This document shows positions 26,774-61,086 of a DNA stretch of 64,000 nt, one piece after another (within the stretch, counting starts at the first letter, position 1; each line of letters opens with the position of its first letter). The stretch comes from Dehalococcoidia bacterium (GTDB lineage: Bacteria; Chloroflexota; Dehalococcoidia; SHYB01). Location: NCBI GenBank assembly GCA_965248515.1, contig CBDFJU010000003.1, positions 975,254-1,039,253 of the forward strand, in the 5' to 3' direction. The notes beneath the pieces were generated by a model. The model was given only the letters and a program-made list of their open reading frames with translations. It had not been told where the DNA came from and made no database searches. The position numbers and the translations under genes are program-made.

Positions 26774-26813
26774 CCGTTGAGCACGGGGCCACTCCCAGTC
26801 CGGAGGTGCTGTC

Positions 26814-27401
26814 ATGGTGCAAACGCTGAAAGGTCGGGTTGTCGTAATCGACCCGTCGGGGCACGTCTGGCGCGAACCGACCTCCCTGGCGAAACGGGTC
26901 GAGTCCTTCGAGGGCAAAACGGTCGGCTTGCTCGACGATGGGGTTGCCGCGAGCCATATCGTCCTCGAACGTATCGGTGAGCTGCTCCAGGAACGGAACG
27001 GGGTTGGCAGGGTCATCCTCGTGCGCAAGCCGAACCTCTCCGCCCGGGTCCCCAAGGCAATGTACGAGGACCTGAAGTCGCAAGTCGACTTCATGGTCGT
27101 TGGGGTGGGGGCCTGAGGCTCCTGCACGTCGTGCTGTATGCACGACGGGATCAGCTTCGAGACCGATGGTATCCCCGCCGCCGTTGTGGTCCTCGATGTC
27201 TTCAAAGAGCTGGCCTTCATGAAGCGCCGCCAGCTCGGCCGTGAGAACTTTGAGCCCATCATCCTTCCCGGCTACATCGGCGTCCCCGAGGTAAACCGGG
27301 CAAAAGCCGAAGAGGCCTATCCGGGCGTGATCCAATGGCTGACCCAGGGGACGCTGTCCCCGAAGGCGGCCCAGCCCGCCGCCGCCCCGGTCAGCCTCTA
27401 G
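26814..27401 (+). CDS. UGSC-family predicted selenoprotein. The in-frame TGA at 27114-27116 is read as Sec.
   Basis: The two listed ORFs (26814-27116, 27138-27401) are in the same frame, separated only by TGA. Context VGVGA-U-GSCTSCCMHDGI gives a U-G-S-C redox motif. A perfect 8 bp hairpin starts 10 nt after the UGA. SelD in this window is also Sec-containing. Confidence 0.6.
27127..27147 (+). promoter_or_regulatory. Candidate bacterial SECIS hairpin (CGTCGTGC-TGTAT-GCACGACG), 10 nt after the UGA.
   Basis: Read directly. Spacing is compatible with bacterial SECIS elements. Confidence 0.4.
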
Positions 27402-27407
27402 CAGCCC

Positions 27408-28487
27408 ATGGCGCAGCTCGGCGACGCCGCGGCCACCTTCACCACGCCCGATAGCTGGGACTCCTTCGTCGAGACGATCGAGGAGTTCTATCGCAAGGGC
27501 TGGACCGACGGCCTGCCCGTAATCCCGCCCACGCCGGACCTCGTCCAGCGCATGGTCGAGCATTCCGGCCGCGACCCTCACGAGCTCCTCGGTCCCGTGC
27601 CGCCTCGTATGGGCCTGGCCACCGTCGAGACCGTCGCCGCCAACGCCGTGATGGCCGGCTGCCGGCCCGAATATTTCCCAGTGGTCCTGGCCGTCGTCGA
27701 AGCGGCCCTCGACGAGCGCTTCAACCTGAACGGACTGCAGGCCACTACGCATCCCGCCGGGCCTCTCGTGATCATCAGCGGTCCCGTGGTGAAAGAACTC
27801 GACATCAACTACGGTACCAGTGCCTTCGGTCCCGGCTTTCGCTCCAACGCCACCATCGGCAGGGCGCTGCGCCTCGTGATGATGGTCCTCGGCGGCGGCT
27901 ACCCCGAGACCGGCGACAAGTCCGTCCTCGGCTCCCCCGGCAAGTACATCTACTGCATCGGCGAGTCGCCCGACGCGCCCTGGGGCCCGCTCCATAGGGA
28001 CTTCGGCGCCGACAGCGCAAGCGGCGTCACCGTAATCGGCTGCGATAGCCCGGTCCAGTACGCCTCCGGCGGCGCTGCCAAGGACCCGGAGATAGCCCTG
28101 CGGGACATGGTCGACCAGGTCGGGGTCTCGTGGCACACGATCCGTCGGGGAGGCGAGGTCCTCTTCGTCCTCAACCCCCTCATAGCGAAATCCTTATACG
28201 ACGCCGGCTGGTCGAAAAAGGCCATCGGCGAGCACGTCCACGAGCACGCCCAGGTGTCGATGAAAGGCATGCTGGAACGCGGCCGCATGAGCTGGAATGC
28301 CGGCGCTCCCGAGGACGTCTGGCCCGCAAGCCCCGACGACCTCGACGACACCACGATGATTTCCGTGCTGCGCAAGCCCGAGCACCTGCTGGTCACCGTC
28401 GCCGGCGGGCTCCAGGCCGCGTTCTGCGCCTGCATCCAGGGCTGGGGCTACATGGGCGGCTGGGCCACCAGCCGACCGATCAGCTAG
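27408..28487 (+). CDS. Hypothetical protein, downstream of the UGSC gene.
   Basis: Long clean ORF with typical codon usage. No family recognised. Confidence 0.5.
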   Translation: MAQLGDAAATFTTPDSWDSFVETIEEFYRKGWTDGLPVIPPTPDLVQRMVEHSGRDPHELLGPVPPRMGLATVETVAANAVMAGCRPEYFPVVLAVVEAALDERFNLNGLQATTHPAGPLVIISGPVVKELDINYGTSAFGPGFRSNATIGRALRLVMMVLGGGYPETGDKSVLGSPGKYIYCIGESPDAPWGPLHRDFGADSASGVTVIGCDSPVQYASGGAAKDPEIALRDMVDQVGVSWHTIRRGGEVLFVLNPLIAKSLYDAGWSKKAIGEHVHEHAQVSMKGMLERGRMSWNAGAPEDVWPASPDDLDDTTMISVLRKPEHLLVTVAGGLQAAFCACIQGWGYMGGWATSRPIS

Positions 28488-28783: not shown

Positions 28784-29980
28784 ATGCCCGGTCCCCTCGA
28801 CGGAATCCGCGTCATCGACTTCACCCACGCCCTCGCCGCGCCCTTCGGCACCATGGTCCTGGCCGACCTCGGCGCCGAGGTCATTAACGTGGTCCGGGTC
28901 GAAGAGCGCGACGAGACCCGCGGCCACGGCCCCTTTGTCAACGGACGCAGCACCTTCCGTTTCTCGATCGAGCGCGGCAAGAAAGGCATCCAGGTCGACC
29001 TCAAGCGCCCCGAGGGGCTGGAGCTGGCTCTCGACCTGGCGGACCGCAGCGACGTCCTCACCGAGAATTTCACCCCTGGTGCGATGGACCGCCTCGGGTT
29101 GGGCTACGAAGTCGTGTCGAAAAGGAACCCGCGCATCGTCTACGCGTCGTGCTCCGGCTTCGGGCAGACCGGCCCCTACGCACGGCGCGGCGGTCTCGAT
29201 GCCGTGATCCAGGCGATGAGCGGACTCATGAGCATCACCGGCGAGGCCGACGGCCGCCCGATGCGCACCGGCGCCTCCTTCGGCGATACGATCGCTGGGG
29301 CCCACTTCGCCATGGGCATCATCACCGCCCTCTACGAGCGAGAGCGCAGCGGCAAGGGGCAACGCCTCGACGTCAGCATGCTCGGCGCTATGGTCTACCA
29401 CCTGGAGAACGCCATCATCCGGCAGTCCGCCGGCGACACGCCCAAGCGAATCGGCCCGCGCCACCCGCTGAGCACCCCGTTCCAGCCCTTCGAGACGGCC
29501 GACGGCTGGATCGTCGTCGCCGGCACCCGGGACTGGCCCGCCCTCTGCGTCGTCATCGGCCGCGAGGAGCTAGCCAAAGACCCCCGGTTCGAGACCAACG
29601 CGGGACGCACCGCACTCCACGCCGAGCTCGAGCCCATCCTAATGGAGGCTTTCCGAGCCAAAGGCTCGGAGGAATGGCTGCGGCTTTTGGAAGGGATCTG
29701 CCTCGCCGCGCCCGTTTACTCCATCGATGAGATGATCCACGACCCACACATCCAGGCGACGGATACCATCGTCCGCCTGCCGGTGCCCGGGCCGGAGGAG
29801 CGCACCGTGCTCGTGCCCAACTCGCCGCTGCGCCTCTCGCGTACGCCGCCGCGTGTCGACTCGCCGGGCCCGGCCACGGGCGAGCACACTCGGCAGGTGC
29901 TTCAAGAGGTGCTCGAGATGCCGCCGCAGCGGATCGCGGAGCTCGAGGCGGCCGGCGTGGTGCGGTGTAACGAGGACTAG
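28784..29980 (+). CDS. CoA-transferase family III (CaiB/BaiF-like).
   Basis: GIRVIDFTHALAAPFGTMVLADLGAEVI N-terminal signature. Confidence 0.85.
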   Translation: MPGPLDGIRVIDFTHALAAPFGTMVLADLGAEVINVVRVEERDETRGHGPFVNGRSTFRFSIERGKKGIQVDLKRPEGLELALDLADRSDVLTENFTPGAMDRLGLGYEVVSKRNPRIVYASCSGFGQTGPYARRGGLDAVIQAMSGLMSITGEADGRPMRTGASFGDTIAGAHFAMGIITALYERERSGKGQRLDVSMLGAMVYHLENAIIRQSAGDTPKRIGPRHPLSTPFQPFETADGWIVVAGTRDWPALCVVIGREELAKDPRFETNAGRTALHAELEPILMEAFRAKGSEEWLRLLEGICLAAPVYSIDEMIHDPHIQATDTIVRLPVPGPEERTVLVPNSPLRLSRTPPRVDSPGPATGEHTRQVLQEVLEMPPQRIAELEAAGVVRCNED

Positions 29981-30393
29981 CCGGAGGAGGGCCGGAACTT
30001 CGGGATGCTGATCGCGTCCGTCGCGTCCTCGAACACGACCTCCACCGGCATGCCGATCTCCACGTCGTAGGGGTCCGCAGCGCCGACGACGTTTGTCAGC
30101 ATCAGCACGCCCTCGTCTAACGTCACGTAGGCCAGCACATAGGGGCCCTCGTCTTTGAAGCCCGGCGACTTGTTCTGGTGCACGACCGACAGGCTGTAGA
30201 CCGCGCCCTTGCCGCTGACCTTCACCCACTCGAGCTCCGTTGACAGGCAGCGAGGGCATACCCCCTGCGGCGGGTAAAACAGCTCGTTGCATTCGGTGCA
30301 GCGCGGGAGGCGCAGCTCGTGGAGCTTGCACGCGTCCCAGAAGGGCTTGGTGTCGGCGTTGACCGTCGGCAGCGGCTTGACGTAGTCGGCCAT
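29977..30393 (-). CDS. Zn-ribbon/OB-fold (DUF35) protein, partner of thiolase-like enzymes.
   Basis: CTECNELFYPPQGVCPRCLS zinc ribbon plus OB-fold. Confidence 0.75.
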   Translation of the reverse strand: MADYVKPLPTVNADTKPFWDACKLHELRLPRCTECNELFYPPQGVCPRCLSTELEWVKVSGKGAVYSLSVVHQNKSPGFKDEGPYVLAYVTLDEGVLMLTNVVGAADPYDVEIGMPVEVVFEDATDAISIPKFRPSSG

Positions 30394-30394
30394 G

Positions 30395-31564
30395 TTAGTC
30401 GCTCCCCAGGACCATCGTCACGCCGCTATGCCTTCCGCCGATGTTGCCCCCGGTCCCATGACAAAGTGAGATCTTGCAGTCCTTCACCTGGCGCTCGGTT
30501 CCCGCGTAGTCTCCCCGCAGCTGCTTCACCGCCTCGATAACCAGGAAGATGCCGCGCATGCCGGGGTGATTCGAAGAGAGGCCGCCGCCGTCGGTGTTCA
30601 TCGGAAGCTCGCCGTCGATAGCAAGCCGTCCTCCCTCGACGTAGCTGCCGCCCTCACCGCGTTTACAGAAGCCGAGACCTTCGAGGCTGGTCAGCACCGT
30701 GATGGTGAACGAGTCGTAGACCATCAGGTGATCGATATCCTTGTGCTCGACCCCCGCCATGGCGAAGGCCGTTGGCGCCGACCGGTACGGGGCAACGTCC
30801 ATGAAGTCGCGGTGGCCACCGCGGAGGTACTCGTAGCCTTCGCCGACCCCGAGGAGCCATGCGGGCTTCGTCTTGATGTCCCTCGCCCGCTCCGGGCTCG
30901 TTACCACCAGCGCCCCCCCGCTGTCCGAGATGACGCAGCAGTCGAACAGGTGCAGCGGCCAGGCGATGGGGCGTGAGGCGAGTACATCCTCGACGGTGAT
31001 AGGGTCGCGGAACATGGCGTTGGGGTTCATGCCGGCATGGCGCCGCGTCGTGACCGCGATCTCCGCCAGTTGCTCGCTGGTCGTCCCGAACTCGTGCATG
31101 TGCCGCGACGCCACGGTCGCGTAGAGCCCGGCGAGGATGCCCCCGTAGGGCGCCTCGAAACTCTCCGGCCATGGGTTCAGCCTCGAGCCACCCGAGCCCC
31201 CGGTGCCGATGGCCCGCCCGATCTGGATCGGCGTCGCTCCGTATGTGATGAGCACCACCTCGCACTGCTTTGCGGCGATGGCGGCCGCGGCCCGGGAGAC
31301 ATGCGCCAGGAACGAGGACCCTCCAATGTTCATCCCGTCGAGGACCCTGGGGTTCAGGCCGAGGTAATCGGCGAGGTAGACCACGTCCATTCCCGCGTTG
31401 GCCGGCGACATGAAGCCGTCGACGTCCTTGACGCTCAGGCCGGCCTCGGCCAGCGCCTGCCGGGCGCACTCCGCCTGAATCATGTTCGGCGTCACGCCGG
31501 GAGTCTGCCGGCCTGGGTACTCATACGCGCCGACGATCGCGGCGCTCTTCGTCAGGGAGCCCAT
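30395..31564 (-). CDS. Thiolase-like protein (SCP-x/lipid-transfer type).
   Basis: Thiolase fold motifs. Start MGSLTKSAAIVGAYEYPG chosen over the longer listed ORF. Confidence 0.8.
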   Translation of the reverse strand: MGSLTKSAAIVGAYEYPGRQTPGVTPNMIQAECARQALAEAGLSVKDVDGFMSPANAGMDVVYLADYLGLNPRVLDGMNIGGSSFLAHVSRAAAAIAAKQCEVVLITYGATPIQIGRAIGTGGSGGSRLNPWPESFEAPYGGILAGLYATVASRHMHEFGTTSEQLAEIAVTTRRHAGMNPNAMFRDPITVEDVLASRPIAWPLHLFDCCVISDSGGALVVTSPERARDIKTKPAWLLGVGEGYEYLRGGHRDFMDVAPYRSAPTAFAMAGVEHKDIDHLMVYDSFTITVLTSLEGLGFCKRGEGGSYVEGGRLAIDGELPMNTDGGGLSSNHPGMRGIFLVIEAVKQLRGDYAGTERQVKDCKISLCHGTGGNIGGRHSGVTMVLGSD

Positions 31565-31571
31565 GCCCGGA

Positions 31572-31796
31572 CTAGTCCAGCACCGGTATCGAGGTCCACT
31601 GCATCTCGTCGGGCTTGTCCACCAGCTTCTTCTCGCCGGCAATCTCCCGGATCTTGAGAAGCGTCATATTGACTTCCGGCGTCAGAAACACCCAGTCCGG
31701 CTCCGGCGGAAACCAGTAAGGCGAGTTGATCCGGACCACCGTCTTGTCCTTCGCGTTCAGATAGATACCGAACTTCTTGATGTTCTCCTGCACCAT
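31572..31796 (-). CDS. Small hypothetical protein heading the thiolase operon.
   Basis: 74 aa ORF, tight spacing to thiolase. Confidence 0.35.
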   Translation of the reverse strand: MVQENIKKFGIYLNAKDKTVVRINSPYWFPPEPDWVFLTPEVNMTLLKIREIAGEKKLVDKPDEMQWTSIPVLD

Positions 31797-37264: not shown

Positions 37265-37510
37265 TTGACGGTACGTATCAATCGCGGAGACGGGGAGTAG
37301 TAGAGGAAACCGGGTCCCGTGAGAGTCGGGGGTCGGAGCGACCCGACGGCACAGGTCCTTGAACTCGCCCCCGAGCGACCGGGCTGAAACTCGAGTAGGT
37401 CCGGCGGGCAAGCCCGTTACAGCGAACGAGAGCTCCGCTTCTGGCGGGGAACAAGGGTGGTACCGCGGGATGCAATCCCGTCCCTTAACGCAGGGGCGGG
37501 ATTTTTTGGT
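37265..37510 (+). promoter_or_regulatory. T-box riboswitch leader upstream of ilvB.
   Basis: T-box sequence aacaAGGGTGGTACCGCGgga at 37450-37470, followed by a terminator hairpin atcccgtccc/ggggcgggat plus a T-run (37475-37509). Possible CUC specifier (gaaCUCg). Confidence 0.6.
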
Positions 37511-37555: not shown

Positions 37556-39271
37556 TTGATGAAGCGCACCGGTGCACAGATCGTTTGTGAGTCGTTGCTG
37601 AAGGAAGGGGTGGACATTGTCTTCGGGCTGCTCGGCGGCGCGATTCTCCCCCTCTACCAGACGCTCCCCGAATATCCCAAGCTCAAGCATATCCTGGTAC
37701 GTCACGAGCAGTCCGCTGCCCATGCCGCGGACGGCTATGCTCGTGTGACGGGCAAGGTCGGCGTCTGCGTTGCCACGTCGGGCCCCGGTGCCACGAACCT
37801 GGTCACCGGTCTCGCCAACGCCATGATGGACTCGGTCGCCATGGTCGCCATCACCGGCCAGGTCCCCAGGTCCGCCATCGGGAAAGACGCCTTCCAGGAG
37901 ACCGACGTGACGGGCGTTACCCTCCCGGTCACCAAGCATAACTACCTGGTCATGGACCCGGCCGAGCTCGCCGTCACAGTGAAAGAGGCATTCCACTTGG
38001 CCCGCACCGGCCGGCCGGGGCCCGTGCTCATCGATATCCCGAAGGACGTCCTGCAGATGGAGGCCGATTTCAAATACCCGGACTCGGTCAACCTGCCGGG
38101 CTACAAACCGCACCTGACCGGCCACCCGACCCAGGTCAAGAAGGCCGCCAAACTGATCGCCGAGTCCGAGCGACCCGTGATCCTCGCGGGCCACGGCGTC
38201 ATCATCTCCCGTGCTTACGACGAGCTGCGCGAGCTGGCCGAGACGGCCCAGATCCCGGTGATCACCACCCTCCTCGGCATCAGCGGCTTTCCCGAGAATC
38301 ACGTCCTTTCGGCCGGCATGCCAGGCATGCATGGTATGGCCTATGCCAACCACGCGATCAACGAATCCGACCTCGTGATCGGGATCGGGATGCGCTTCGA
38401 CGACCGTGTCGTTGGGCGCGTGTCGGACTTCGCCCCGAACGCCAGGATCATTCATATCGATATCGACCCGTCGGAAATCGACAAGAACGTTCGCTCAACC
38501 CTTCCCCTGGTGGGCGACGTCAAGCGGGTGTTGGCGGCGATCAACCGCATCATCGAACCGGTGAGCCGCGTCGACTGGATCAAACGGATCGAGGCGCTGA
38601 AGAAGGCCCACCCGTCGCACCTGTTGCCCGAGACCGACAAGTTGCTCCCACAGTTCGTCGTTCGACAGATTTGGGAGGCGACCCAGGGCGACGCGATCAT
38701 TGTCACCGGCGTGGGCCAGCACCAGATGTGGGCCGCCCAGCACTTCTTCTACAACAAGCCGGCGTCCTTCGTCACGTCCGGCGGCCTGGGCACGATGGGC
38801 TTCGAGGTCCCTGCGGCCCTCGGCGCCAAGGTCGGCAAGCCCAAGGAAACCGTATGGTCTATCTGCGGCGACGGCGGGTTCCAGATGACCCTGCAGGAGC
38901 TCGCCACCATCAGGGAGCACAACGTCGATATCAAGTTCGCGATCTTCAACAATGGCTTCCACGGCATGGTCCGCCAGTGGCAGGAGTTCTTCTACGAAAA
39001 GGACTATGTCGCGACACGGTTCTTCAACCCGGACTTCGTCAAGCTCGCCGAGGCCTACGACATTGCGGGTCTTCGGGTGACCGACAGGGCCGCGGTTCGG
39101 CCCACAATCGACGAGGCGATGCAGATCAAGGGGCCCGTGGTTATCGACTTCGTGGTCGAAGCCGAAGAGAACGTCTACCCCATGATCCCGGCCGGCACGT
39201 CGGTGAACGAGATGATCGAAGCCCCAGTCGAGGGCCTGAAGCTCGTCGACTCGAAGGACGCGTCCACATGA
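37556..39271 (+). CDS. ilvB: Acetolactate synthase large subunit.
   Basis: ThDP-binding GDG...N motif region, 571 aa, typical ALS. Confidence 0.9.
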   Translation: MMKRTGAQIVCESLLKEGVDIVFGLLGGAILPLYQTLPEYPKLKHILVRHEQSAAHAADGYARVTGKVGVCVATSGPGATNLVTGLANAMMDSVAMVAITGQVPRSAIGKDAFQETDVTGVTLPVTKHNYLVMDPAELAVTVKEAFHLARTGRPGPVLIDIPKDVLQMEADFKYPDSVNLPGYKPHLTGHPTQVKKAAKLIAESERPVILAGHGVIISRAYDELRELAETAQIPVITTLLGISGFPENHVLSAGMPGMHGMAYANHAINESDLVIGIGMRFDDRVVGRVSDFAPNARIIHIDIDPSEIDKNVRSTLPLVGDVKRVLAAINRIIEPVSRVDWIKRIEALKKAHPSHLLPETDKLLPQFVVRQIWEATQGDAIIVTGVGQHQMWAAQHFFYNKPASFVTSGGLGTMGFEVPAALGAKVGKPKETVWSICGDGGFQMTLQELATIREHNVDIKFAIFNNGFHGMVRQWQEFFYEKDYVATRFFNPDFVKLAEAYDIAGLRVTDRAAVRPTIDEAMQIKGPVVIDFVVEAEENVYPMIPAGTSVNEMIEAPVEGLKLVDSKDAST

Positions 39272-52906: not shown

Positions 52907-53959
52907 CTACTCTTGCACGGTGATCTTTACCGGCGTGCCGTCAACGACCTCTCCCACGATGACCGGGCTCTCGACTCCGCTTCGTTTCATCTCCTCGATG
53001 AGAGCCTCGGCCTTGCCGGCGTCGACGGAAACGAGCAGGCCCCCGGAGGTTTGCGGGTCATACAAAACCCGATAGGCCTCGGGATGGACTCCGGGTGTCC
53101 AGCTTACTGCTTCGTCATAATACGTCCGGTTGCGCTTCGTCCCGCTGGGCGACAGGCCTCGCTCCGCGGTCAGCTCCCATGCCCCGGCCATTATCGGAGC
53201 CTGCGAGAAGAAAACGCGCGCGGAGGCGTTGCTCGCGTGGAGCATGCCATGAAGGTGACCGAGAAGTCCGAAGCCGGTCACGTCGGTACAGGCGTTGACG
53301 CCCACCCGAACGCTCGCCTCGGAGGCGGCCCGGTTGAGCGTTGCCATGTGGCGCACGGCTTCGTCGAGCACGTCCGCTGGCGCCTCGTCGATCTTCCCCG
53401 CGGTGGTAACGATCCCAGAGCCGAGAGGCTTGGTCAGCACCAGCATGTCGCCGGGCCGCGCACCCGCGTTGGTGAGCTGTTCTCCGGGACGCAGAACCCC
53501 GGTGGCCGCGAGCCCGTACTTCGGCTCGGCGTCGACAATGGTGTGGCCGCCCACAATGACCGCGCCGGCCTCGTGAACCTTGTCTGAGCCGCCCCGCAAA
53601 ATCTCCTTCAGGATCCCCTTCGGCAGGTCGTCCGGGAAGGCGACGATGTTGAGCGCAGTCAGAGGCCGCGCGCCGGTGGCATAGATGTCGCTCAGCGAGT
53701 TGGCGGCGGAGATGAGCCCATACGTGTATGGGTCGTCGACGACCGGTGGGAAGAAGTCCACGGTCTGGACCAACGCCACGTCTTCACTGAGGCGGTAGAC
53801 CGCTGCGTCGTCTCCGGTCTCGATTCCGACCAGCAAGTTAGGGTCAACTGTCTTCGGCAGTTGACTCAGCAAGTCGCTCAGGTCCCCCGGACCGAATTTA
53901 GCGCCTCAGCCGCCTGAGTGGGCTAACGACGTGAGCCGTATGCGTTGCTCAGTGGTCAT
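52907..53959 (-). CDS. selD: Selenide, water dikinase (selenophosphate synthetase). Sec-containing: TGA at 53908-53906 read as Sec.
   Basis: The listed ORF (52907-53872) lacks the N-terminus. In-frame upstream: ATG at 53959, then MTTEQRIRLTSLAHSGG-U-GAKFGPGDLSDLL..., giving the SelD active-site Sec/Cys position. A hairpin GGTCCGGGGGACC follows the UGA. Confidence 0.8.
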
Positions 53960-55337: not shown

Positions 55338-57560
55338 ATGTCCTTCTCACGCAGACAATTCCTCAAGCTGGTAGGAGGTACGACTGCCGGGGCGGCGGTC
55401 CTCGCCGCATGCCGCCCCGCCGTTAGCGAGTTCATCCAGCAGAGCCCGCATACGCTCCCCGAAGACCTGGTGACCGGCGTCGACAACTGGTATGCGACCC
55501 TGTGCCGGGAGTGCTCCGCTGGCTGCGGCGTCGTGGTGCGGATCATCGAGGGCCGGGCCAAGAAGATCGAAGGCAACCCCCTCCACCCAATCAGTCGGGG
55601 CAAGCTCTGCGCGCGGGGGCAGTCCCCGGTGCAGGCCGTCTACCATCCCGATCGCATCCGCCGTCCGATGCGGCCCGAGGGCGGTCGCGGCTCCCGTCGT
55701 TACCGCGAGATCGGCTGGGACGAAGCGCTCGACGAGCTGGTGCGAAATCTCGATGGGCTGCGGGGCAGCGGCGCGGTCACGCTCATTACCGACCCGGTTG
55801 CCGGGCATCTCGGTGGGCTGGTCTCCACCTTCTCGCAAAGCTACGGCGCGCGCCACGTGCCCTACGAACCCATGGACCAGGCCGCGCTTCGGATGGCCAT
55901 GAACAGAGTCTTCGGCCAAGACCGGATCCCCGAGTTCGACATTCAGAACACCAACTACCTCCTATCGTTCGGCGCCGATTTCCTCGGTGGCTGGCTCTCC
56001 CAGGTCCGGCACTCTCGAGGCTACGGGGAGTTTCGTCAGGGCGACCGGGAGCGCGGGACCTTCGTCCAGGTCGACACCCGCTTCTCGACCACCGCGGCTA
56101 ACGCCGACACCTGGGTGCCCGTGAAGCCCGGGGCCGAGGGCAAGCTGGCGGCAAGCATGGCCCAGGTGATCATTACCGAGGGCCTCGGCCGAGCAGCTTC
56201 GTTGCGGGTAGCCGCGGGGGACCTCGAGGCATTCAGCCCGGAACGGGTCGCCGACGCCACCGGCGTCAGCGCCGACCGCATCCGGGAGCTGGCCCGGGCC
56301 TTCGCCGACGATCACAACCAGCCTGCCCTCGCCATCGGCGGCGGATCTGCCGGCGCCTACACCAACGGCTCGTTCAACCTGGCCGCTATCTATGCCCTCA
56401 ACCATCTTGTGGGGAGCGTCGGCAGTCCCGGCGGTATCATCTTCAATCCGGCCCCGCCGTCCGGCGGTCTCCCGGTCGCGGGCAGCGAGAGCATGCCGTT
56501 CAGCGGCTGGAACCGCGAAGTGGCGCGGATGCGCGAGGGCGCGGTCAGCGCCGTCCTCGTCCGCAACGCCGACCCGGTTTTCGGCTCGCCGGCGAGTCTC
56601 GACGTCGAGGGCGCCCTCGGGCGCGTCGGGTTCATAGCCAGCTTTTCGAGCTTCCTCGACGATACGACCCTGATGGCCGACCTGGTGCTGCCAACCAGCC
56701 TGCCGCTCGAAGACTGGGGCGATCTGCCGCCCGACCCGGGCCCCGGGTTTCAGGCCGTCGGGCTTCAGCAGCCCGTCGTGCGGCCCTTCCACGACACCCG
56801 CGGCTTCGGCGACGTCATCCTGGCGGTGGCCCAGGACCTGGGCCTCGAGAGTGACCTCCCCTGGACGAGCTTCCGCGATGTGCTTCGCGATGGCGCCCAG
56901 CGCCTGCACCAGCTGAATCGGGGCTCGGTCTCCGGCGCCACGTTCGAGGAGTTCTGGAACGACCTCCTACGGCAAGGGGGCTGGTGGGACGAGGCCCAGG
57001 TCTCCTCCGACCGCATCGCCCTGCCCGAGTTCCCGGTCATCGTGCCTGACGCGGAGTTTGCCGGCTCGCCCGCCGACTACCCCTTCACCCTCGTGCCCTT
57101 CCAATCGATCTCTCTGGGCGACGGACGTGGCGCCCACCTCCCATGGATGCAGGCCACCCCGGACCCCATCACCACGACGACCTGGGAGACCTGGGTCGAA
57201 GTGAACAGCCGTGTGGCCGACGATCAGGGCCTCAAGGAAGGCGATGTCGTCGCAATCGAATCGCCGACTGGGACCATCCAGGCGGCGGTCTATCCCAATC
57301 CCGCCGCCCCGCCCGACGTCCTCGGCATCCCGGTGGGCCAGGGACACCGCGCCTTCGGGCGCTACGCGGAGGGCCGCGGCTCCAACCCGCTCGATATCGT
57401 CGATCCGCGAACGGATGAGCAGTCGGGAGGCCTTGCCTGGGCCGCGACCCGCGTCCGAATGCGGCCCATCGGCCAGCGTATTCGCATACCGAAGATGGAA
57501 AACTCGGTCCTGGCCATCGACTTTGACCGATCGGTAGCCCAGATCACCAACGAAGGATAA
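55338..57560 (+). CDS. actB: ACIII ActB N-terminal-type subunit (molybdopterin-oxidoreductase-like, Tat signal).
   Basis: Twin-arginine signal SRRQFLKLVGGTTAGAAVLAA. N-terminal Cys cluster CRECSAGCG...C. Confidence 0.8.
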   Translation: MSFSRRQFLKLVGGTTAGAAVLAACRPAVSEFIQQSPHTLPEDLVTGVDNWYATLCRECSAGCGVVVRIIEGRAKKIEGNPLHPISRGKLCARGQSPVQAVYHPDRIRRPMRPEGGRGSRRYREIGWDEALDELVRNLDGLRGSGAVTLITDPVAGHLGGLVSTFSQSYGARHVPYEPMDQAALRMAMNRVFGQDRIPEFDIQNTNYLLSFGADFLGGWLSQVRHSRGYGEFRQGDRERGTFVQVDTRFSTTAANADTWVPVKPGAEGKLAASMAQVIITEGLGRAASLRVAAGDLEAFSPERVADATGVSADRIRELARAFADDHNQPALAIGGGSAGAYTNGSFNLAAIYALNHLVGSVGSPGGIIFNPAPPSGGLPVAGSESMPFSGWNREVARMREGAVSAVLVRNADPVFGSPASLDVEGALGRVGFIASFSSFLDDTTLMADLVLPTSLPLEDWGDLPPDPGPGFQAVGLQQPVVRPFHDTRGFGDVILAVAQDLGLESDLPWTSFRDVLRDGAQRLHQLNRGSVSGATFEEFWNDLLRQGGWWDEAQVSSDRIALPEFPVIVPDAEFAGSPADYPFTLVPFQSISLGDGRGAHLPWMQATPDPITTTTWETWVEVNSRVADDQGLKEGDVVAIESPTGTIQAAVYPNPAAPPDVLGIPVGQGHRAFGRYAEGRGSNPLDIVDPRTDEQSGGLAWAATRVRMRPIGQRIRIPKMENSVLAIDFDRSVAQITNEG

Positions 57561-57583
57561 CTGGAGAAGACGGGGAGAACGGC

Positions 57584-58318
57584 ATGACAACGCAGCGAGC
57601 AGAGCAGCCCAAGTGGGGCCTCGCGATAGACGGCGATCGGTGTACCGGTTGCCAGGCCTGTGTCGTTGCCTGCCAGGCCGAGAACAACCTCCCCATCAAC
57701 GACGCGGACCTCTTCCGCGAAAAGCGGGCGTTCGAATGGATTCGCGTCGAGCGCTATTGGGAGGGCGAATACCCCAACGTCAAGGCCCGGTTCCTGCCCA
57801 TGCTCTGCCAGCAGTGCGACAACGCTCCCTGTGAGCCCGTCTGCCCTGTCTTCGCTACCTACCACAACAACCAGGGGCTCAACGTCCAGGTCTACAACCG
57901 CTGCATTGGGACTCGATACTGCGCCAACAACTGTCCCTATAACGTCCGCTTCTTCAACTTCTGGGAGCCCTCGTGGCCCGCGAGCCTGCGCAACCAGCTC
58001 AACCCGGACGTGACGGTGCGCAGCCGTGGCATCATGGAAAAGTGCACGTTCTGCGTGCAGCGCATTCGCCGGGCCGAGAAGACAGCCAAGTTCGAGTTGA
58101 GGGTCCTGGCAGACGGCGAGCTCCAGACCGCTTGCGCCCAGGCCTGCCCCACCGACGCGCTCGTCTTCGGCAACCTCAAGGACCCGGCGAGCAAGGTTTC
58201 CAAGCTTTCCAAGGACCGGCGTCACTACCGCGTTCTCGAGGAGCAGGGGACCGAGCCCAGCGTGTTCTATCTCAAGCGTGTCGACAAGACCGCCGCAGAC
58301 GACGGGGGCCATGAGTAG
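57584..58318 (+). CDS. ACIII ActB C-terminal-type 4Fe-4S ferredoxin subunit, encoded separately here.
   Basis: Multiple CxxCxxCxxxCP motifs (CTGCQACVVACQAEN, CQQCDNAPCEPVCP...). Confidence 0.8.
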   Translation: MTTQRAEQPKWGLAIDGDRCTGCQACVVACQAENNLPINDADLFREKRAFEWIRVERYWEGEYPNVKARFLPMLCQQCDNAPCEPVCPVFATYHNNQGLNVQVYNRCIGTRYCANNCPYNVRFFNFWEPSWPASLRNQLNPDVTVRSRGIMEKCTFCVQRIRRAEKTAKFELRVLADGELQTACAQACPTDALVFGNLKDPASKVSKLSKDRRHYRVLEEQGTEPSVFYLKRVDKTAADDGGHE

Positions 58319-59690
58319 CCACTACGAGCCCCAGATCATTACCGAGACCCCGCAAGAGGTCAATCGGCAAATTCTGGAACAGACCAAGCGCTGGGGGAAG
58401 AATTTCAAGCTCGCCCTCGCGTTTATGGGCGTGTTGTTCCTGCTTGGCATCATTGGCTTCATCATCCGCCTCACGGACGGTTTGGACGACTTCACGCCGT
58501 GGGGCTACTTCATGGCGACCTACGCTTTTCTTCTGACCACGGCGTCCTCGGCCCCCATCGTCTCCATCACCCAGAGAATGGTGCGGAGCCACTGGCGGCG
58601 ACCGATGGCCCGTGCCTCCGAGACCTTCGCTGTCGTCGGCGTGCTCAGCACGCTGATGTTCATCCCGCTCATACTGCTGCTCCCCTCCGCGGATGGGCGG
58701 CGCAGCATTTGGTTCGAGTGGCCGGGAACGCCGCTCTTTACCGATCTCCTGGCGGTCGTCTTCCTCGCCGTTCTGGGGCTCATGCTCCTGTGGGTGGCAT
58801 CGATCCCCGATCTGGCGGCGCGGCGGGACCACGACAGCACCACGCCCCGGTGGGTCAGCCGCCTGGCCATGGAGTGGCGCGGGACAACCCGCCAGTGGAA
58901 CGTCCTTCGCGGCGCGCTGATGATCATGGGCGCGATGTACTTCCTGTTCCTGGTCTACGTGCACACCATCATCGCCGCCGACTTCGCCGAGGCGCTGGTG
59001 CCCGGCTGGAAAGACGCCATCCTCCCCACCTACCACGCCCTGAGCGGCCTGCAGAGCGCCTTTGCCTCGACCATCCTGGCCACGTTCCTGCTCTACAAGT
59101 TCGGCGGGTTCAAGGACTTCATCAGCAAGGACCAGTTCTGGGCCGCGGGCAAGATCATGTTCGCGCTATCGCTCCTCTGGGCCTACTTCTGGATGTCGGG
59201 CTTCATCGTCTACTGGTACGGCCGGCAGCCCGCCGAGCAGACCATCCTCCGCTATCTGATGTTCGATGCCTATATCGTGCCCTTCATCATCACCGTATTC
59301 CTCAACTTCCTCGTGCCCTTCCTGGTGCTGTTATGGAACTTCGCGCGGAAGTCCATTCTCGGGCCGACCATCGTCGCCGTTTCCATCCTGATCGGCACGC
59401 TCTTCGACAGGATCAGACTCTATGTCGCGTCCTTCTCGGCCGCGGATAAGACGGACTCGCTGGATACGCTTCACCCGGAGCCCCTGTCCGAGGTGCTGCC
59501 CGCCGTGATGCCGGGCGGGCCCGATGTGCTGATCGTCATCGGAGGAATTGCCGGCGCCATCTTTCTCTACATGCTTGCGACAAAGATCATCCCCCCCGTG
59601 TCGATCTGGGAGATCACCGAAGGGATGCTCTACCGCAAGAAGAAGACGTTCCTGAAGCGGACCATCATGGTCATGGGCAAGCCGGAATAG
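58311..59690 (+). CDS. ACIII NrfD/PsrC-family membrane subunit (ActC/ActF-type), first copy.
   Basis: Polytopic membrane protein. The ATG at 58311 overlaps the upstream stop (ATGAGTAG). Listed ORF starts at 58278. Confidence 0.7.
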   Translation: MSSHYEPQIITETPQEVNRQILEQTKRWGKNFKLALAFMGVLFLLGIIGFIIRLTDGLDDFTPWGYFMATYAFLLTTASSAPIVSITQRMVRSHWRRPMARASETFAVVGVLSTLMFIPLILLLPSADGRRSIWFEWPGTPLFTDLLAVVFLAVLGLMLLWVASIPDLAARRDHDSTTPRWVSRLAMEWRGTTRQWNVLRGALMIMGAMYFLFLVYVHTIIAADFAEALVPGWKDAILPTYHALSGLQSAFASTILATFLLYKFGGFKDFISKDQFWAAGKIMFALSLLWAYFWMSGFIVYWYGRQPAEQTILRYLMFDAYIVPFIITVFLNFLVPFLVLLWNFARKSILGPTIVAVSILIGTLFDRIRLYVASFSAADKTDSLDTLHPEPLSEVLPAVMPGGPDVLIVIGGIAGAIFLYMLATKIIPPVSIWEITEGMLYRKKKTFLKRTIMVMGKPE

Positions 59691-59691
59691 C

Positions 59692-61086
59692 ATGCAAGAC
59701 CAACTCATAGTCGGGGCCAATGCCCAAGAGGTCGACGAGAAGATCAACCGCGATCTTATCGGGAGCGTCCTCACTACCCCGCCGCGATTCTGGGTCATCG
59801 TCGGCTTTCTCGCGCTTGTGGTCGCCATGTCCGCGGGCGCTGCGGGCTACATGATCAACCAGGGCCTGGGGGTTACCGGGCTCCATCGGCCGGTGATGTG
59901 GGGCTTCTTCATCACCAACTTCGTCTTCTGGGTCGGGATCAGCCACGCGGGTGTGATGCTGTCGGCGATTCTGAGGCTGGCCCAGGCCGAGTGGCGAAGG
60001 CCGGCGACCCGCGCCGCGGAGGTCGTGACCGTCTTCTCGCTCATGACTGCGCTGCTGATGCCCATCCTGCACACCGGGCGTCCATGGCGGACGTTGTACT
60101 GGGCGTTCCCGTACGACTTCGCCCGAGGTATCTGGCCGAACGTGCGGTCGCCCCTCGTCTGGGACCCCACGGCCATCAACACCTACCTGACCTCGAGCAT
60201 CCTCTTCGTCTATGTCGCCCTCATTCCCGACTTCGCCGTGGCCCGCGACAGGACCACCGGCATCCGCCACACGATCTACAGCGTGTTGGCCCTCGGGTGG
60301 CGCGGCTACCCGCGCCAGTGGCGCCTCCAGATGATCGCCGGGATACTGCTCTCGGCACTCATCCTCCCGGTGTTTGTCTCGGTCCATAGCATCGTGTCCT
60401 GGGACTTCGCCGTGGCCCAGTCTGTCGAAGGGTGGCACTCTACTATCTTCGCCCCCTACTTCGTCATCGGGGCCGTTCACTCGGGAGTCTCGGCGGTCGT
60501 GACGGTGCTGATCATCCTCCGCTACCTGTTCAATTGGGGGGACTACATCACAAGGGACACACTGGACTCCCTGGGGCGGCTCCTCATCGTTGTAGCCACC
60601 GCCTGGTTCTATTTCTTCACCATGGAGGTCCTGTTCGGTCTCTTCACGCTGGAGACACCGGAGATTGGCCTGCGGACCTTGCAGATATTCCAGTGGCCCT
60701 ATGCGATGCTCTTTATCACCTTCATCATCGCCGCCTATTTCTTCCCAGTACCGCTGTGGCTATTCCGTAACGTGCGGAGAAGCTTCAAGTGGATGTTCAT
60801 CACCACCGTGGCGGTGAACATCGGTATGTGGCTGGAACGCTTCTTGATCGTCGTGCCGGGGCTTGCGCGGAAGTCGCCCCTGACCTTCAACTGGAGCACG
60901 TATCATCCGAGCATCATCGAAATACTCATCGTCATCGGCACCTTTGCCTTCGTCAGTATGATGATCCTGCTGTTCTCCAGAGTCGCTCCGCTTATACCCA
61001 TCTACGACGTCAAAGAAGGGCAGATCCTGAAGGACACTATCAAGATCGGCAAAGTCGAAGTCCCCGCTGTGATGCGAGAAGAATGA
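59692..61086 (+). CDS. actC: ACIII NrfD/PsrC-family membrane subunit (ActC-type), second copy.
   Basis: TNFVFWVGISHAG motif typical of the NrfD/PsrC/ActC family. ~10 TM. Confidence 0.75.
   Translation: MQDQLIVGANAQEVDEKINRDLIGSVLTTPPRFWVIVGFLALVVAMSAGAAGYMINQGLGVTGLHRPVMWGFFITNFVFWVGISHAGVMLSAILRLAQAEWRRPATRAAEVVTVFSLMTALLMPILHTGRPWRTLYWAFPYDFARGIWPNVRSPLVWDPTAINTYLTSSILFVYVALIPDFAVARDRTTGIRHTIYSVLALGWRGYPRQWRLQMIAGILLSALILPVFVSVHSIVSWDFAVAQSVEGWHSTIFAPYFVIGAVHSGVSAVVTVLIILRYLFNWGDYITRDTLDSLGRLLIVVATAWFYFFTMEVLFGLFTLETPEIGLRTLQIFQWPYAMLFITFIIAAYFFPVPLWLFRNVRRSFKWMFITTVAVNIGMWLERFLIVVPGLARKSPLTFNWSTYHPSIIEILIVIGTFAFVSMMILLFSRVAPLIPIYDVKEGQILKDTIKIGKVEVPAVMREE

What the first reader, a model, noticed from the sequence alone, without database searches (positions are those of the whole stretch)
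26814..27401. Predicted selenoprotein: UGSC-family gene with an in-frame TGA and a perfect downstream hairpin
Two adjacent listed ORFs share a frame and are separated only by TGA. Reading through gives ...VGVGA-U-GSCTSCC..., a U-G-S-C redox-type motif. An 8 bp perfect stem (CGTCGTGC/GCACGACG) begins 10 nt after the UGA, compatible with a bacterial SECIS. The genome also encodes a Sec-containing SelD (see that finding).
Basis: partly seen in the sequence, partly recalled or inferred. Interest (0 to 1): 0.7.

Follow-up and report, generated by a model that had tools for sequence, protein, structure and literature searches.

The report
UGSC-family selenoprotein gene with SECIS hairpin
This is a real but ordinary selenoprotein gene: one 195-codon gene of the long-known UGSC family whose internal TGA encodes selenocysteine with the help of a conserved RNA hairpin. 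What the protein and its ever-present neighbour gene do is still unknown.

Summary
Window 26814-27401 (+) is one reading frame broken only by TGA at 27114-27116. A perfect 8-bp hairpin (27127-27147, loop UGUAU) starts 10 nt after it. With Cys in place of the stop, the product matches Pfam PF24696 (UGSC family) end to end, E 5e-39. It also aligns without a break to uninterrupted Cys-containing homologues.

In 90 homologous sites from many phyla, 89 have TGA at this codon. The hairpin is kept in 70 distinct Sec-type sequences, with compensatory changes and frozen synonymous sites, and it decays in 17 Cys-type controls. It meets all four published bacterial SECIS criteria. The same window carries a SelD gene with its own in-frame TGA. 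selA, selB and selC are not in the window and could not be checked genome-wide.

UGSC has been a catalogued selenoprotein family of unknown function since about 2007, so this is a new, mis-called member of a known kind (public gene calls split it into 100-aa and 87-aa hypothetical proteins).

Extras found here:
- An adjacent 359-aa gene with no Pfam family accompanies UGSC in every testable locus and is fused to it in Alicyclobacillus.
- The predicted UGSC fold is flavodoxin/Rossmann-like, not thioredoxin-like.

The parts
26802..26806 (+). Shine-Dalgarno-like GGAGG, 7 nt upstream of the ATG
   Evidence: Read directly from the sequence.
26814..27401 (+). UGSC-family selenoprotein gene: 195 codons plus a TAG stop, with Sec at codon 101
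   Evidence: Translation. Pfam PF24696 at 134.6 bits, profile positions 2-171/172. hhalign probability 99.8 against the Cys-form profile. GC3 is 0.81 and 0.84 on the two sides of the TGA.
27114..27116 (+). In-frame TGA read as selenocysteine (U101 of the motif U-G-S-C)
   Evidence: TGA in 89 of 90 homologous sites and TGC in one. Aligned to Cys in the Cys-forms.
27127..27147 (+). Bacterial SECIS hairpin: 8-bp stem (27127-27134 with 27140-27147) and loop UGUAU (27135-27139). The loop begins 18 nt after the UGA
   Evidence: Folds at -13.5 kcal/mol. 92% of cells paired across 70 distinct sequences, with compensatory changes at 3 pairs. Not kept in Cys-forms. Kept in Alicyclobacillus despite different amino acids. 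Meets the bSECIS criteria quoted in PMC13188914.
27408..28487 (+). Conserved partner gene (359 aa, no Pfam family) that starts 6 nt after the UGSC stop codon
52907..53959 (-). Selenophosphate synthetase SelD with its own in-frame TGA (53906-53908), at the position of E. coli Cys17
   Evidence: tblastn 42% identity, E 1e-66, with the stop aligned to Cys17. Sequence read. AIRS and AIRS_C domains.

Best explanation
Window 26814-27401 is a single gene for a UGSC-family selenoprotein in a Dehalococcoidia (Chloroflexota) genome.

Recoding. The UGA at 27114-27116 is decoded as selenocysteine. The hairpin inside the coding sequence (8-bp stem, loop UGUAU, loop starting 18 nt after the UGA) acts as a bacterial SECIS element. 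It recruits SelB-GTP-Sec-tRNA(Sec) to the ribosome. Selenium is activated by the SelD encoded in the same window. The gene identity, the conserved UGA and the conserved hairpin are shown by the data. SelB binding and actual Sec insertion are inferred from established knowledge of the bacterial Sec pathway.

Protein function (inferred, lower confidence of about 0.4). Sec101 sits at the N-terminus of helix 3 of a flavodoxin/Rossmann-like alpha/beta domain and forms a U-x-x-C selenenylsulfide redox couple with Cys104. The protein works as one subunit of an obligate two-protein unit with the product of the adjacent gene 27408-28487, which has an invariant Cys85. It probably passes reducing equivalents to or from that partner, on a substrate not yet known.
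For: One gene:
- Pfam PF24696 UGSC at E 5e-39 spans both sides of the TGA.
- The product aligns contiguously to uninterrupted Cys-form proteins from Sphingomonads and haloarchaea that NCBI names 'UGSC family (seleno)protein'.
- The coding GC3 signature is equal on both sides of the TGA.

Sec codon:
- TGA occurs at the same codon in 89 of 90 sites from Dehalococcoidia, Proteobacteria, Nitrospinota, Eremiobacterota and others.
- The same TGA is present in three independent assemblies.
- TGA still ends other genes in the window, so the genetic code is standard.

SECIS:
- Across 70 distinct sequences, 92.3% of cells are paired. None of 500 shuffles reach that value, and slid controls give 10-50%. 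Compensatory changes occur at pairs 15/33, 18/30 and 21/27.
- The loop Cys codon is TGT in 74 of 74 Sec-forms, while the Cys four codons upstream is mostly TGC.
- In 17 Cys-form controls the loop codon is TGC in 14, the Ser codon is free, and only 3-7 of the 8 pairs form.
- Two Alicyclobacillus genes keep the hairpin although the peptide changes to TSWSVHD or SSCSLRD.
- All four published bSECIS criteria are met: loop of 3-9 nt, stem of 4-16 bp, G in the first two loop positions followed by U, 16-37 nt from the UGA, and MFE of -7.5 or lower.

Sec machinery:
- A Sec-type SelD is in the window.
- selA lies next to the module in 17 related loci. L082 reads selA-selB-tRNA(Sec)-partner-UGSC.

Function:
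- The AlphaFold2 model of a Cys-form homologue (pLDDT 90.9) places the Cys equivalent to Sec between strand 3 and helix 3.
- The partner is adjacent in every locus where this can be tested, and is fused to UGSC in A. tolerans.
- Only the U-x-x-C pair is universal. The third Cys (C108) is Ser in the A. tolerans copies.
Against: - selA, selB and tRNA(Sec) were not found in the 64-kb window, and the rest of the genome could not be searched.
- There is no experimental evidence for Sec insertion here.
- The NCBIfam equivalog NF041046 scores 94.5 bits, below its curated cut-off of 125.
- The hairpin overlaps a strongly conserved peptide (TSCCMHD), so part of its conservation is at the protein level.
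- The Cys-form controls belong to a separate clade, so their comparison is phylogenetically confounded.
- Rfam has no matching SECIS model.
- The loop's flanking U and U do not pair, unlike the commonest bSECIS loop pattern.
- The redox and partner mechanism rests on motif position, a model of a 34%-identical homologue, and gene adjacency. No substrate, cofactor or complex was shown.
Confidence: 0.92

Rival explanations
1. The TGA is a genuine stop. Either the locus is a pseudogene, or it is two separate small genes (100 aa and 87 aa) as public gene callers annotate it.
For: Gene calls in public collections list the two halves separately as hypothetical proteins. The second half has an ATG at 27138.
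Against: - The TGA sits at the identical codon in 89 of 90 homologues from many phyla, which a random nonsense mutation cannot explain.
- Cys-form homologues are single uninterrupted proteins.
- The seven codons GSCTSCC between the TGA and the ATG are the most conserved part of the family.
- No Shine-Dalgarno sequence precedes ATG 27138, which lies inside the hairpin.
Confidence: 0.02
2. The UGA is read through or recoded, but not as selenocysteine. It could be an alternative genetic code (Trp or Gly at UGA) or near-cognate suppression, with the hairpin merely stimulating read-through.
For: Read-through of some kind is required by the conservation on both sides of the codon. TGA is rare as a terminator in the window, ending 2 of 17 checked genes.
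Against: - TGA does terminate the ilvB-like and NrfD-like genes.
- The homologous residue in UGA-free relatives is always Cys, the Sec analogue, never Trp or Gly.
- SelD in the window is itself Sec-type.
- selA, selB and tRNA(Sec) lie beside the module in other genomes.
- The family is established as a selenoprotein family in the literature (PMC2398784, PMC13188914).
Confidence: 0.03
3. The gene is a selenoprotein, but the 27127-27147 hairpin is only a by-product of the conserved codons for TSCCMHD. The functional SECIS lies elsewhere or has a different shape.
For: The hairpin coincides with the most conserved peptide, and 3 of its 8 pairs never vary. Longer alternative folds that include flanking pairs are predicted.
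Against: - Synonymous sites inside the hairpin are frozen (TGT 74 of 74, TCG 70 of 75), while the same residues are free in Cys-forms.
- The closing pair flips from C-G to G-C through non-synonymous changes: Cys to Trp together with Met to Ile.
- The hairpin survives changed peptides in Alicyclobacillus.
- Its position and loop match the bSECIS consensus.
Confidence: 0.04
4. An alternative function for the protein. The U/C-x-x-C(-x-x-x-C) motif ligates a metal or an iron-sulfur cluster, possibly shared with the partner, rather than acting as a redox dithiol/selenol.
For: [quoted passage not shown] These hold [8Fe-9S-C]-type clusters through single Cys ligands (PMC12176620).
- The partner's weak best matches are class I (Fe-S) fumarate hydratases.
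- Most members carry a third Cys at position +7.
Against: - The third Cys is Ser in both A. tolerans copies.
- No cofactor prediction was possible with these tools.
Confidence: 0.2

Closest known systems
UGSC-containing selenoprotein family (Pfam PF24696; NCBIfam NF041046 'UGSC family (seleno)protein'). Described by Zhang and Gladyshev in Hyphomonas neptunium, Olavius symbionts and the Sargasso/GOS metagenomes (PMC1976440, PMC2398784)
   Same: - Full-length Pfam match.
- U-G-S-C motif at the same position.
- Sec-forms greatly outnumber Cys-forms: 255 versus 21 in GOS, and 89 versus 1 in the sites collected here, though that set was selected with a Sec-type query.
- Function unknown.
- A fusion with an unknown domain has been reported for the family.
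   Different: - This is a divergent Dehalococcoidia subgroup (VGVGA-U-GSC) about 35% identical to the proteobacterial type.
- It scores below the NCBIfam equivalog cut-off.
- It is not annotated as a selenoprotein in public gene calls, which split it into two ORFs.
Thioredoxin-fold UxxC/CxxU selenoproteins (Trx-like, Prx-like, SelW-like)
   Same: A Sec paired with a Cys three residues away, at the N-terminus of a helix. This points to a selenenylsulfide redox couple.
   Different: - The predicted fold is a five-stranded parallel beta-alpha repeat (flavodoxin/Rossmann-like).
- The 2008 suggestion of a 'likely Trx-like fold' (PMC2398784) is not supported.
Bacterial SECIS elements (E. coli fdhF type; bSECIS consensus model)
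   Same: - The hairpin lies inside the coding region just 3' of the UGA.
- The apical loop is small, with G then U.
- The loop starts 18 nt from the UGA, within the 16-37 nt range, and the stem is stable.
   Different: - It has its own family-specific sequence (UCGUGC-UGUAU-GCAYGA).
- It has no bulged U.
- Binding to SelB has not been tested.
Glycine/proline reductase selenoprotein B (GrdB/PrdB, Pfam PF07355)
   Same: A UxxC selenoprotein (PMC2398784, Table 2) that works only together with a partner subunit encoded next to it. This is a possible analogy for a two-subunit reductase.
   Different: - There is no PF07355 match even at E up to 10.
- It is not among the structural matches.
- The partner here has no Pfam family at all.
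- The resemblance is an analogy only.
[quoted passage not shown]
   Different: - Sequence identity is only 11-13%.
- The scores barely exceed generic Rossmann-like matches.
- Those proteins bind complex Fe-S clusters in methanogens, and there is no evidence of that here.

Membership tests
UGSC family (Pfam PF24696) | Profile match above the gathering score over the whole domain | tested here: met
   134.6 bits against a cut-off of 25, E 5.1e-39. Protein residues 11-177 cover profile positions 2-171 of 172 and span the TGA.
UGSC family (Pfam PF24696) | U/C-G-S-C motif at the conserved position, with Cys in the non-Sec homologues | tested here: met
   The window reads VGVGA-U-GSCTSCCMHD and aligns to NAYGD-C-GSCTSWC(I/V)HD in the Cys-forms.
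NCBIfam NF041046 UGSC_fam (equivalog model) | Score at or above the curated cut-off of 125 bits | tested here: not met
   94.5 bits, E 5.8e-27. The protein is therefore filed at the Pfam and literature family level, not as an NCBIfam equivalog. This probably explains why it is not auto-annotated.
Bacterial selenoprotein gene | In-frame UGA conserved among orthologues, with a Cys codon in some homologues | tested here: met
   89 TGA and 1 TGC among 90 sites. There are 17 further distinct Cys-form sequences.
Bacterial selenoprotein gene | bSECIS hairpin: 3-9 nt loop, 4-16 bp stem, G in loop position 1-2, 16-37 nt from the UGA, MFE of -7.5 kcal/mol or lower | tested here: met
   5-nt loop UGUAU, 8-bp stem, 18 nt from the UGA, -13.5 kcal/mol. 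The criteria are quoted from PMC13188914. The hairpin shows covariation and is lost in Cys-forms.
Bacterial selenoprotein gene | The genome encodes selD | tested here: met
   SelD at 52907-53959 (-), itself with an in-frame TGA.
Bacterial selenoprotein gene | The genome encodes selA, selB and tRNA(Sec) (selC) | not testable with these tools
   ARAGORN finds no tRNA in the window. None of the ten largest likely genes in the window (431-740 aa) is SelA or SelB. In other genomes these genes lie beside the UGSC module.
Bacterial selenoprotein gene | Selenium actually incorporated at the UGA | not testable with these tools
   Needs 75Se labelling or mass spectrometry.
Thioredoxin-fold oxidoreductases | Thioredoxin fold (mixed sheet, beta-alpha-beta-alpha-beta-beta-alpha) | tested here: not met
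McrC/Mmp7-like cluster-binding domain | Specific structural similarity plus conserved cluster ligands | tested here: inconclusive
GrdB/PrdB (PF07355) | Profile match | tested here: not met
   No hit at E up to 10.

The most novel reading that the evidence does not exclude
UGSC and the adjacent 350-aa protein form an obligate two-subunit (sometimes fused) selenoenzyme of a class not yet described.
- The selenium-bearing subunit is flavodoxin/Rossmann-like rather than thioredoxin-like.
- The catalytic partner has no Pfam family and no solved structural relative, only a faint resemblance to class I Fe-S hydro-lyases.
- The module is spread from Chloroflexota to Proteobacteria, Firmicutes and haloarchaea, and is often parked next to selA, selB and selC.

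The evidence shows the association and the folds. It does not show any activity.
Probability: 0.45. Interest if true: 0.55.

Novelty: new member of a known kind. Interest (0 to 1): 0.27.

Why it matters
For this window it is chiefly an annotation correction. Two 'hypothetical' ORFs are really one selenoprotein, and the organism, a Dehalococcoidia bacterium, uses selenocysteine.

More broadly, UGSC is one of the most abundant selenoprotein families in aquatic metagenomes, and nobody knows what it does.
- It never occurs without one particular neighbouring gene.
- The two are fused in a cultivable Alicyclobacillus.
- The predicted fold is not thioredoxin-like.
- The SECIS is family-specific and overlaps the active-site codons.

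The overlap also illustrates how an RNA signal constrains the protein sequence it sits in. Part of the conservation of 'GSCTSCCMHD' is RNA-level.

Tried and rejected
- Rfam, with gathering thresholds on the whole window and E up to 10 on 27000-27300, has no SECIS match here. Only a T-box elsewhere and noise hits appeared.
- ARAGORN found no tRNA in the window. A Pfam scan of the ten largest likely genes found no SelA or SelB.
- The first homologue search with the read-through protein returned a single truncated hit, because Sec-forms are cut at the TGA in protein databases. Cys-forms had to be reached through locus L079.
- An exact look-up of the partner protein found no contig on record.
- The afdb_sample fold library was not available.
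- A 9-bp helix that would present the UGA itself in a 3-nt loop (27105-27125) occurs only in the closest relatives and is absent from the rest of the family. I rejected it as incidental.
- P0042, an apparent C-terminal-UGSC plus partner protein, looks like a frameshift or gene-call artefact. The genuine fusion is the Alicyclobacillus one.
- The GOS supplement figure for the 'UGSC/Unknown_1 fusion' is held only as an image. Whether Unknown_1 is the partner family could not be verified.
- Neighbourhood clustering found no third gene conserved with the module, apart from selA in 17 loci.
- Sequence searches of both proteins against PDB chains gave nothing below E 0.1.
- The thioredoxin-fold and GrdB/PrdB ideas were tested and not supported.

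Full report
**Observation**

The plus-strand frame that starts at ATG 26814 is preceded by GGAGG at 26802-26806. It runs to TGA at 27114-27116 and continues in the same frame, with no further stop, to TAG at 27399-27401. The product reads ...DFMVVGVGA-U-GSCTSCCMHDGISFETDG....

The hairpin is as described: CGTCGTGC (27127-27134), loop TGTAT (27135-27139) and GCACGACG (27140-27147), with a 10-nt spacer after the TGA. On its own it folds at -13.5 kcal/mol. The 71-nt context has a z-score of -3.77 against dinucleotide shuffles.

Only 6 of the 1696 TGA trinucleotides in the window are followed at 5-24 nt by a perfect hairpin of 8 bp or more. This is the only TGA flanked on both sides by long stretches with the genome's coding signature; GC3 is 0.81 before it and 0.84 after it. 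The same 100-aa and 87-aa ORF pair appears in three independent metagenome assemblies, so the TGA is not a read error.

**It is one gene**

With Cys substituted for the stop, the 195-residue product matches Pfam PF24696 (UGSC family) at E 5.1e-39, covering profile positions 2-171 of 172. It matches NCBIfam NF041046 'UGSC family (seleno)protein' at 94.5 bits. That is highly significant but below the equivalog cut-off of 125.

Uninterrupted Cys-containing homologues exist in Sphingomonads and haloarchaea, and several are named 'UGSC family (seleno)protein' by NCBI. The window protein aligns to Salinigranum P0189 at 34% identity straight across the TGA, with U opposite Cys. It aligns to a profile of 58 Cys-forms with hhalign probability 99.8. 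Public gene calls split the window gene into two pieces; their near-identical copies in JGI are labelled 'hypothetical protein'.

**The TGA is conserved**

A scan of one genome per species returned 80 loci, with the best match at 86% identity in a Dehalococcoidia chromosome. This places the window in Dehalococcoidia. Together with three loci from an earlier look-up and the window, these hold 90 UGSC sites. Of these, 89 carry TGA and one carries TGC at this codon.

This ratio is not unbiased, because the 80 loci were those most similar to a Sec-type query. It does agree with the published 255 Sec versus 21 Cys forms in GOS (PMC2398784). The genetic code is standard: TGA terminates the ilvB-like and NrfD-like genes in the window.

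**The hairpin behaves as a SECIS**

In 70 distinct Sec-type sequences aligned in register (alignment A2), the 8-bp helix is paired in 92.3% of cells. None of 500 shuffles reach that value, and sliding the partner strand by 1-3 columns gives 10-50%. Three pairs show changes on both sides: G-C to A-U at pairs 15/33 and 18/30, and C-G to G-C at the closing pair 21/27.

The closing-pair flip is achieved through two amino-acid changes at once, Cys to Trp and Met to Ile, in the second Dehalococcoidia paralogue.

Synonymous sites are frozen. The Cys codon in the loop is TGT in 74 of 74 Sec-forms, although the Cys four codons upstream is TGC in 67 of 75. The Ser codon in the stem is TCG in 70 of 75.

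As a control I collected Cys-form DNA. In 17 distinct sequences the loop codon is TGC in 14. The Ser codon is TCC, TCG, AGC, TCT or TCA. Only 3-7 of the 8 pairs can form, and the hairpin is mostly not the predicted fold. This control is phylogenetically confounded because the Cys-forms are one clade. However, two Sec-type genes in Alicyclobacillus tolerans keep a 7-bp hairpin at the same place, with GU in the loop, even though the peptide there is TSWSVHD or SSCSLRD.

The element meets all four rules of the published bacterial SECIS model: a 3-9 nt loop, a 4-16 bp stem, G in the first two loop positions usually followed by G or U, 16-37 nt between the UGA and the loop, and MFE of -7.5 kcal/mol or lower (PMC13188914). 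Here these are 5 nt, 8 bp, U-G-U, 18 nt and -13.5 kcal/mol. Rfam has no model that matches it.

**Sec machinery**

SelD is in the window on the minus strand (52907-53959). It is 42% identical to E. coli SelD, with an in-frame TGA (53906-53908) aligned to Cys17. A Sec-dependent SelD implies a working Sec system.

No tRNA gene and no SelA or SelB lie in these 64 kb, and I could not search the rest of the genome. In other genomes the link is physical. selA is next to the module in 17 loci. An alphaproteobacterial locus reads selA-selB-tRNA(Sec)-partner-UGSC.

**What the protein may do**

The gene 6 nt downstream (27408-28487, 359 aa) has no Pfam or NCBIfam family. It has more than 7900 database relatives, and every one that carries a source name is called 'hypothetical protein'.

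A homologue lies directly beside UGSC in 80 of 84 Sec-type loci. It is downstream in Dehalococcoidia and upstream in Proteobacteria, Nitrospinota and Eremiobacterota. The four exceptions are cut by contig ends on the expected side. It is also adjacent in 24 of 25 Cys-type loci, and the exception is again truncated.

In A. tolerans one frame encodes UGSC, with its TGA, fused to this protein. This matches the 'UGSC/Unknown_1 fusion' mentioned for GOS (PMC2398784), although that figure could not be read.

Only the U-x-x-C pair is universal. The third Cys is Ser in the Alicyclobacillus copies. I therefore favour a selenenylsulfide redox couple at a helix N-terminus that serves the partner protein. 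A metal- or cluster-binding role is the main alternative. Neither is demonstrated.

**Comparison with what is known, and verdict**

UGSC-containing proteins have been listed as a selenoprotein family of unknown function since 2007-2008 (PMC1976440, PMC2398784). They are still listed as uncharacterised in 2022 and 2026 reviews (PMC9312934, PMC13188914). They were also seen with recoded Sec codons in Geodermatophilaceae (PMC5330540).

The window gene is thus a new and currently mis-annotated member of a known kind.

The parts that go beyond the literature I could read are:
- the universal partner gene of unknown fold;
- the non-thioredoxin fold of UGSC;
- the evidence that the active-site peptide is co-constrained by the SECIS.

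These apply to the whole family rather than to this window.

Noticed in passing
window 52907-53959 (-): SelD is itself a selenoprotein, with TGA at 53906-53908 aligned to E. coli Cys17. A small hairpin GGUCC-GGG-GGACC starts 12 nt after the UGA. A separate perfect 8-bp hairpin, GTCAACTG/CAGTTGAC, lies about 40 nt downstream.
   Followed up: partly
window, 17 well-supported genes: Stop-codon use is TAG 12, TAA 3 and TGA 2. TAG dominance with rare TGA is unusual for a genome of about 63% GC. It might relate to heavy use of UGA for Sec, but this was not examined.
   Followed up: no
L001 2465-4092, also L004 and L006-L009: Close relatives carry a second, divergent Sec-type UGSC (GLGN-U-GSCTAWCIHD) with its own partner paralogue a few kb from the first pair. 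The window has only one UGSC site.
   Followed up: partly
L082 1-4456, and 16 further loci (for example L045 and L030): selA lies beside the partner-UGSC module. L082 reads selA-selB-tRNA(Sec)-partner-UGSC, which suggests UGSC is a principal client of the Sec system in some Proteobacteria.
   Followed up: yes
L112 1868-6187 (Alicyclobacillus tolerans, GCA_021739485.1): A cultivable Firmicute carries a Sec-type UGSC fused in frame to the partner domain (527 codons, TGA at 2147). It also carries a second unfused Sec-type pair and one more 346-aa ORF with no Pfam family. This could serve as an experimental system.
   Followed up: partly
window 27105-27125 (+): A 9-bp helix (GUGGGGGCC/GGCUCCUGC) would present the Sec UGA as its 3-nt loop. 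It occurs only in the nearest relatives and is not conserved across the family.
   Followed up: yes
window 37278-37488 (+): A T-box leader (Rfam RF00230, 118.7 bits) lies upstream of a TPP-dependent, acetolactate-synthase-like gene at 37556-39271. Aconitase-family (LeuC-like) and LeuA-like genes lie downstream.
   Followed up: no
window 55338-61086 (+): Next to SelD lie a molybdopterin oxidoreductase (740 aa, no in-frame TGA), an unassigned 470-aa ORF and an NrfD-like membrane subunit.
   Followed up: no
window 28784-31642: Downstream of the module are a family III CoA-transferase, a ChsH2-like OB-fold/zinc-ribbon protein and a thiolase-like protein. CoA-transferase homologues occur in 34 of the related loci, but their position relative to UGSC was not examined and they did not come out as a conserved neighbour in the clustering.
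   Followed up: partly
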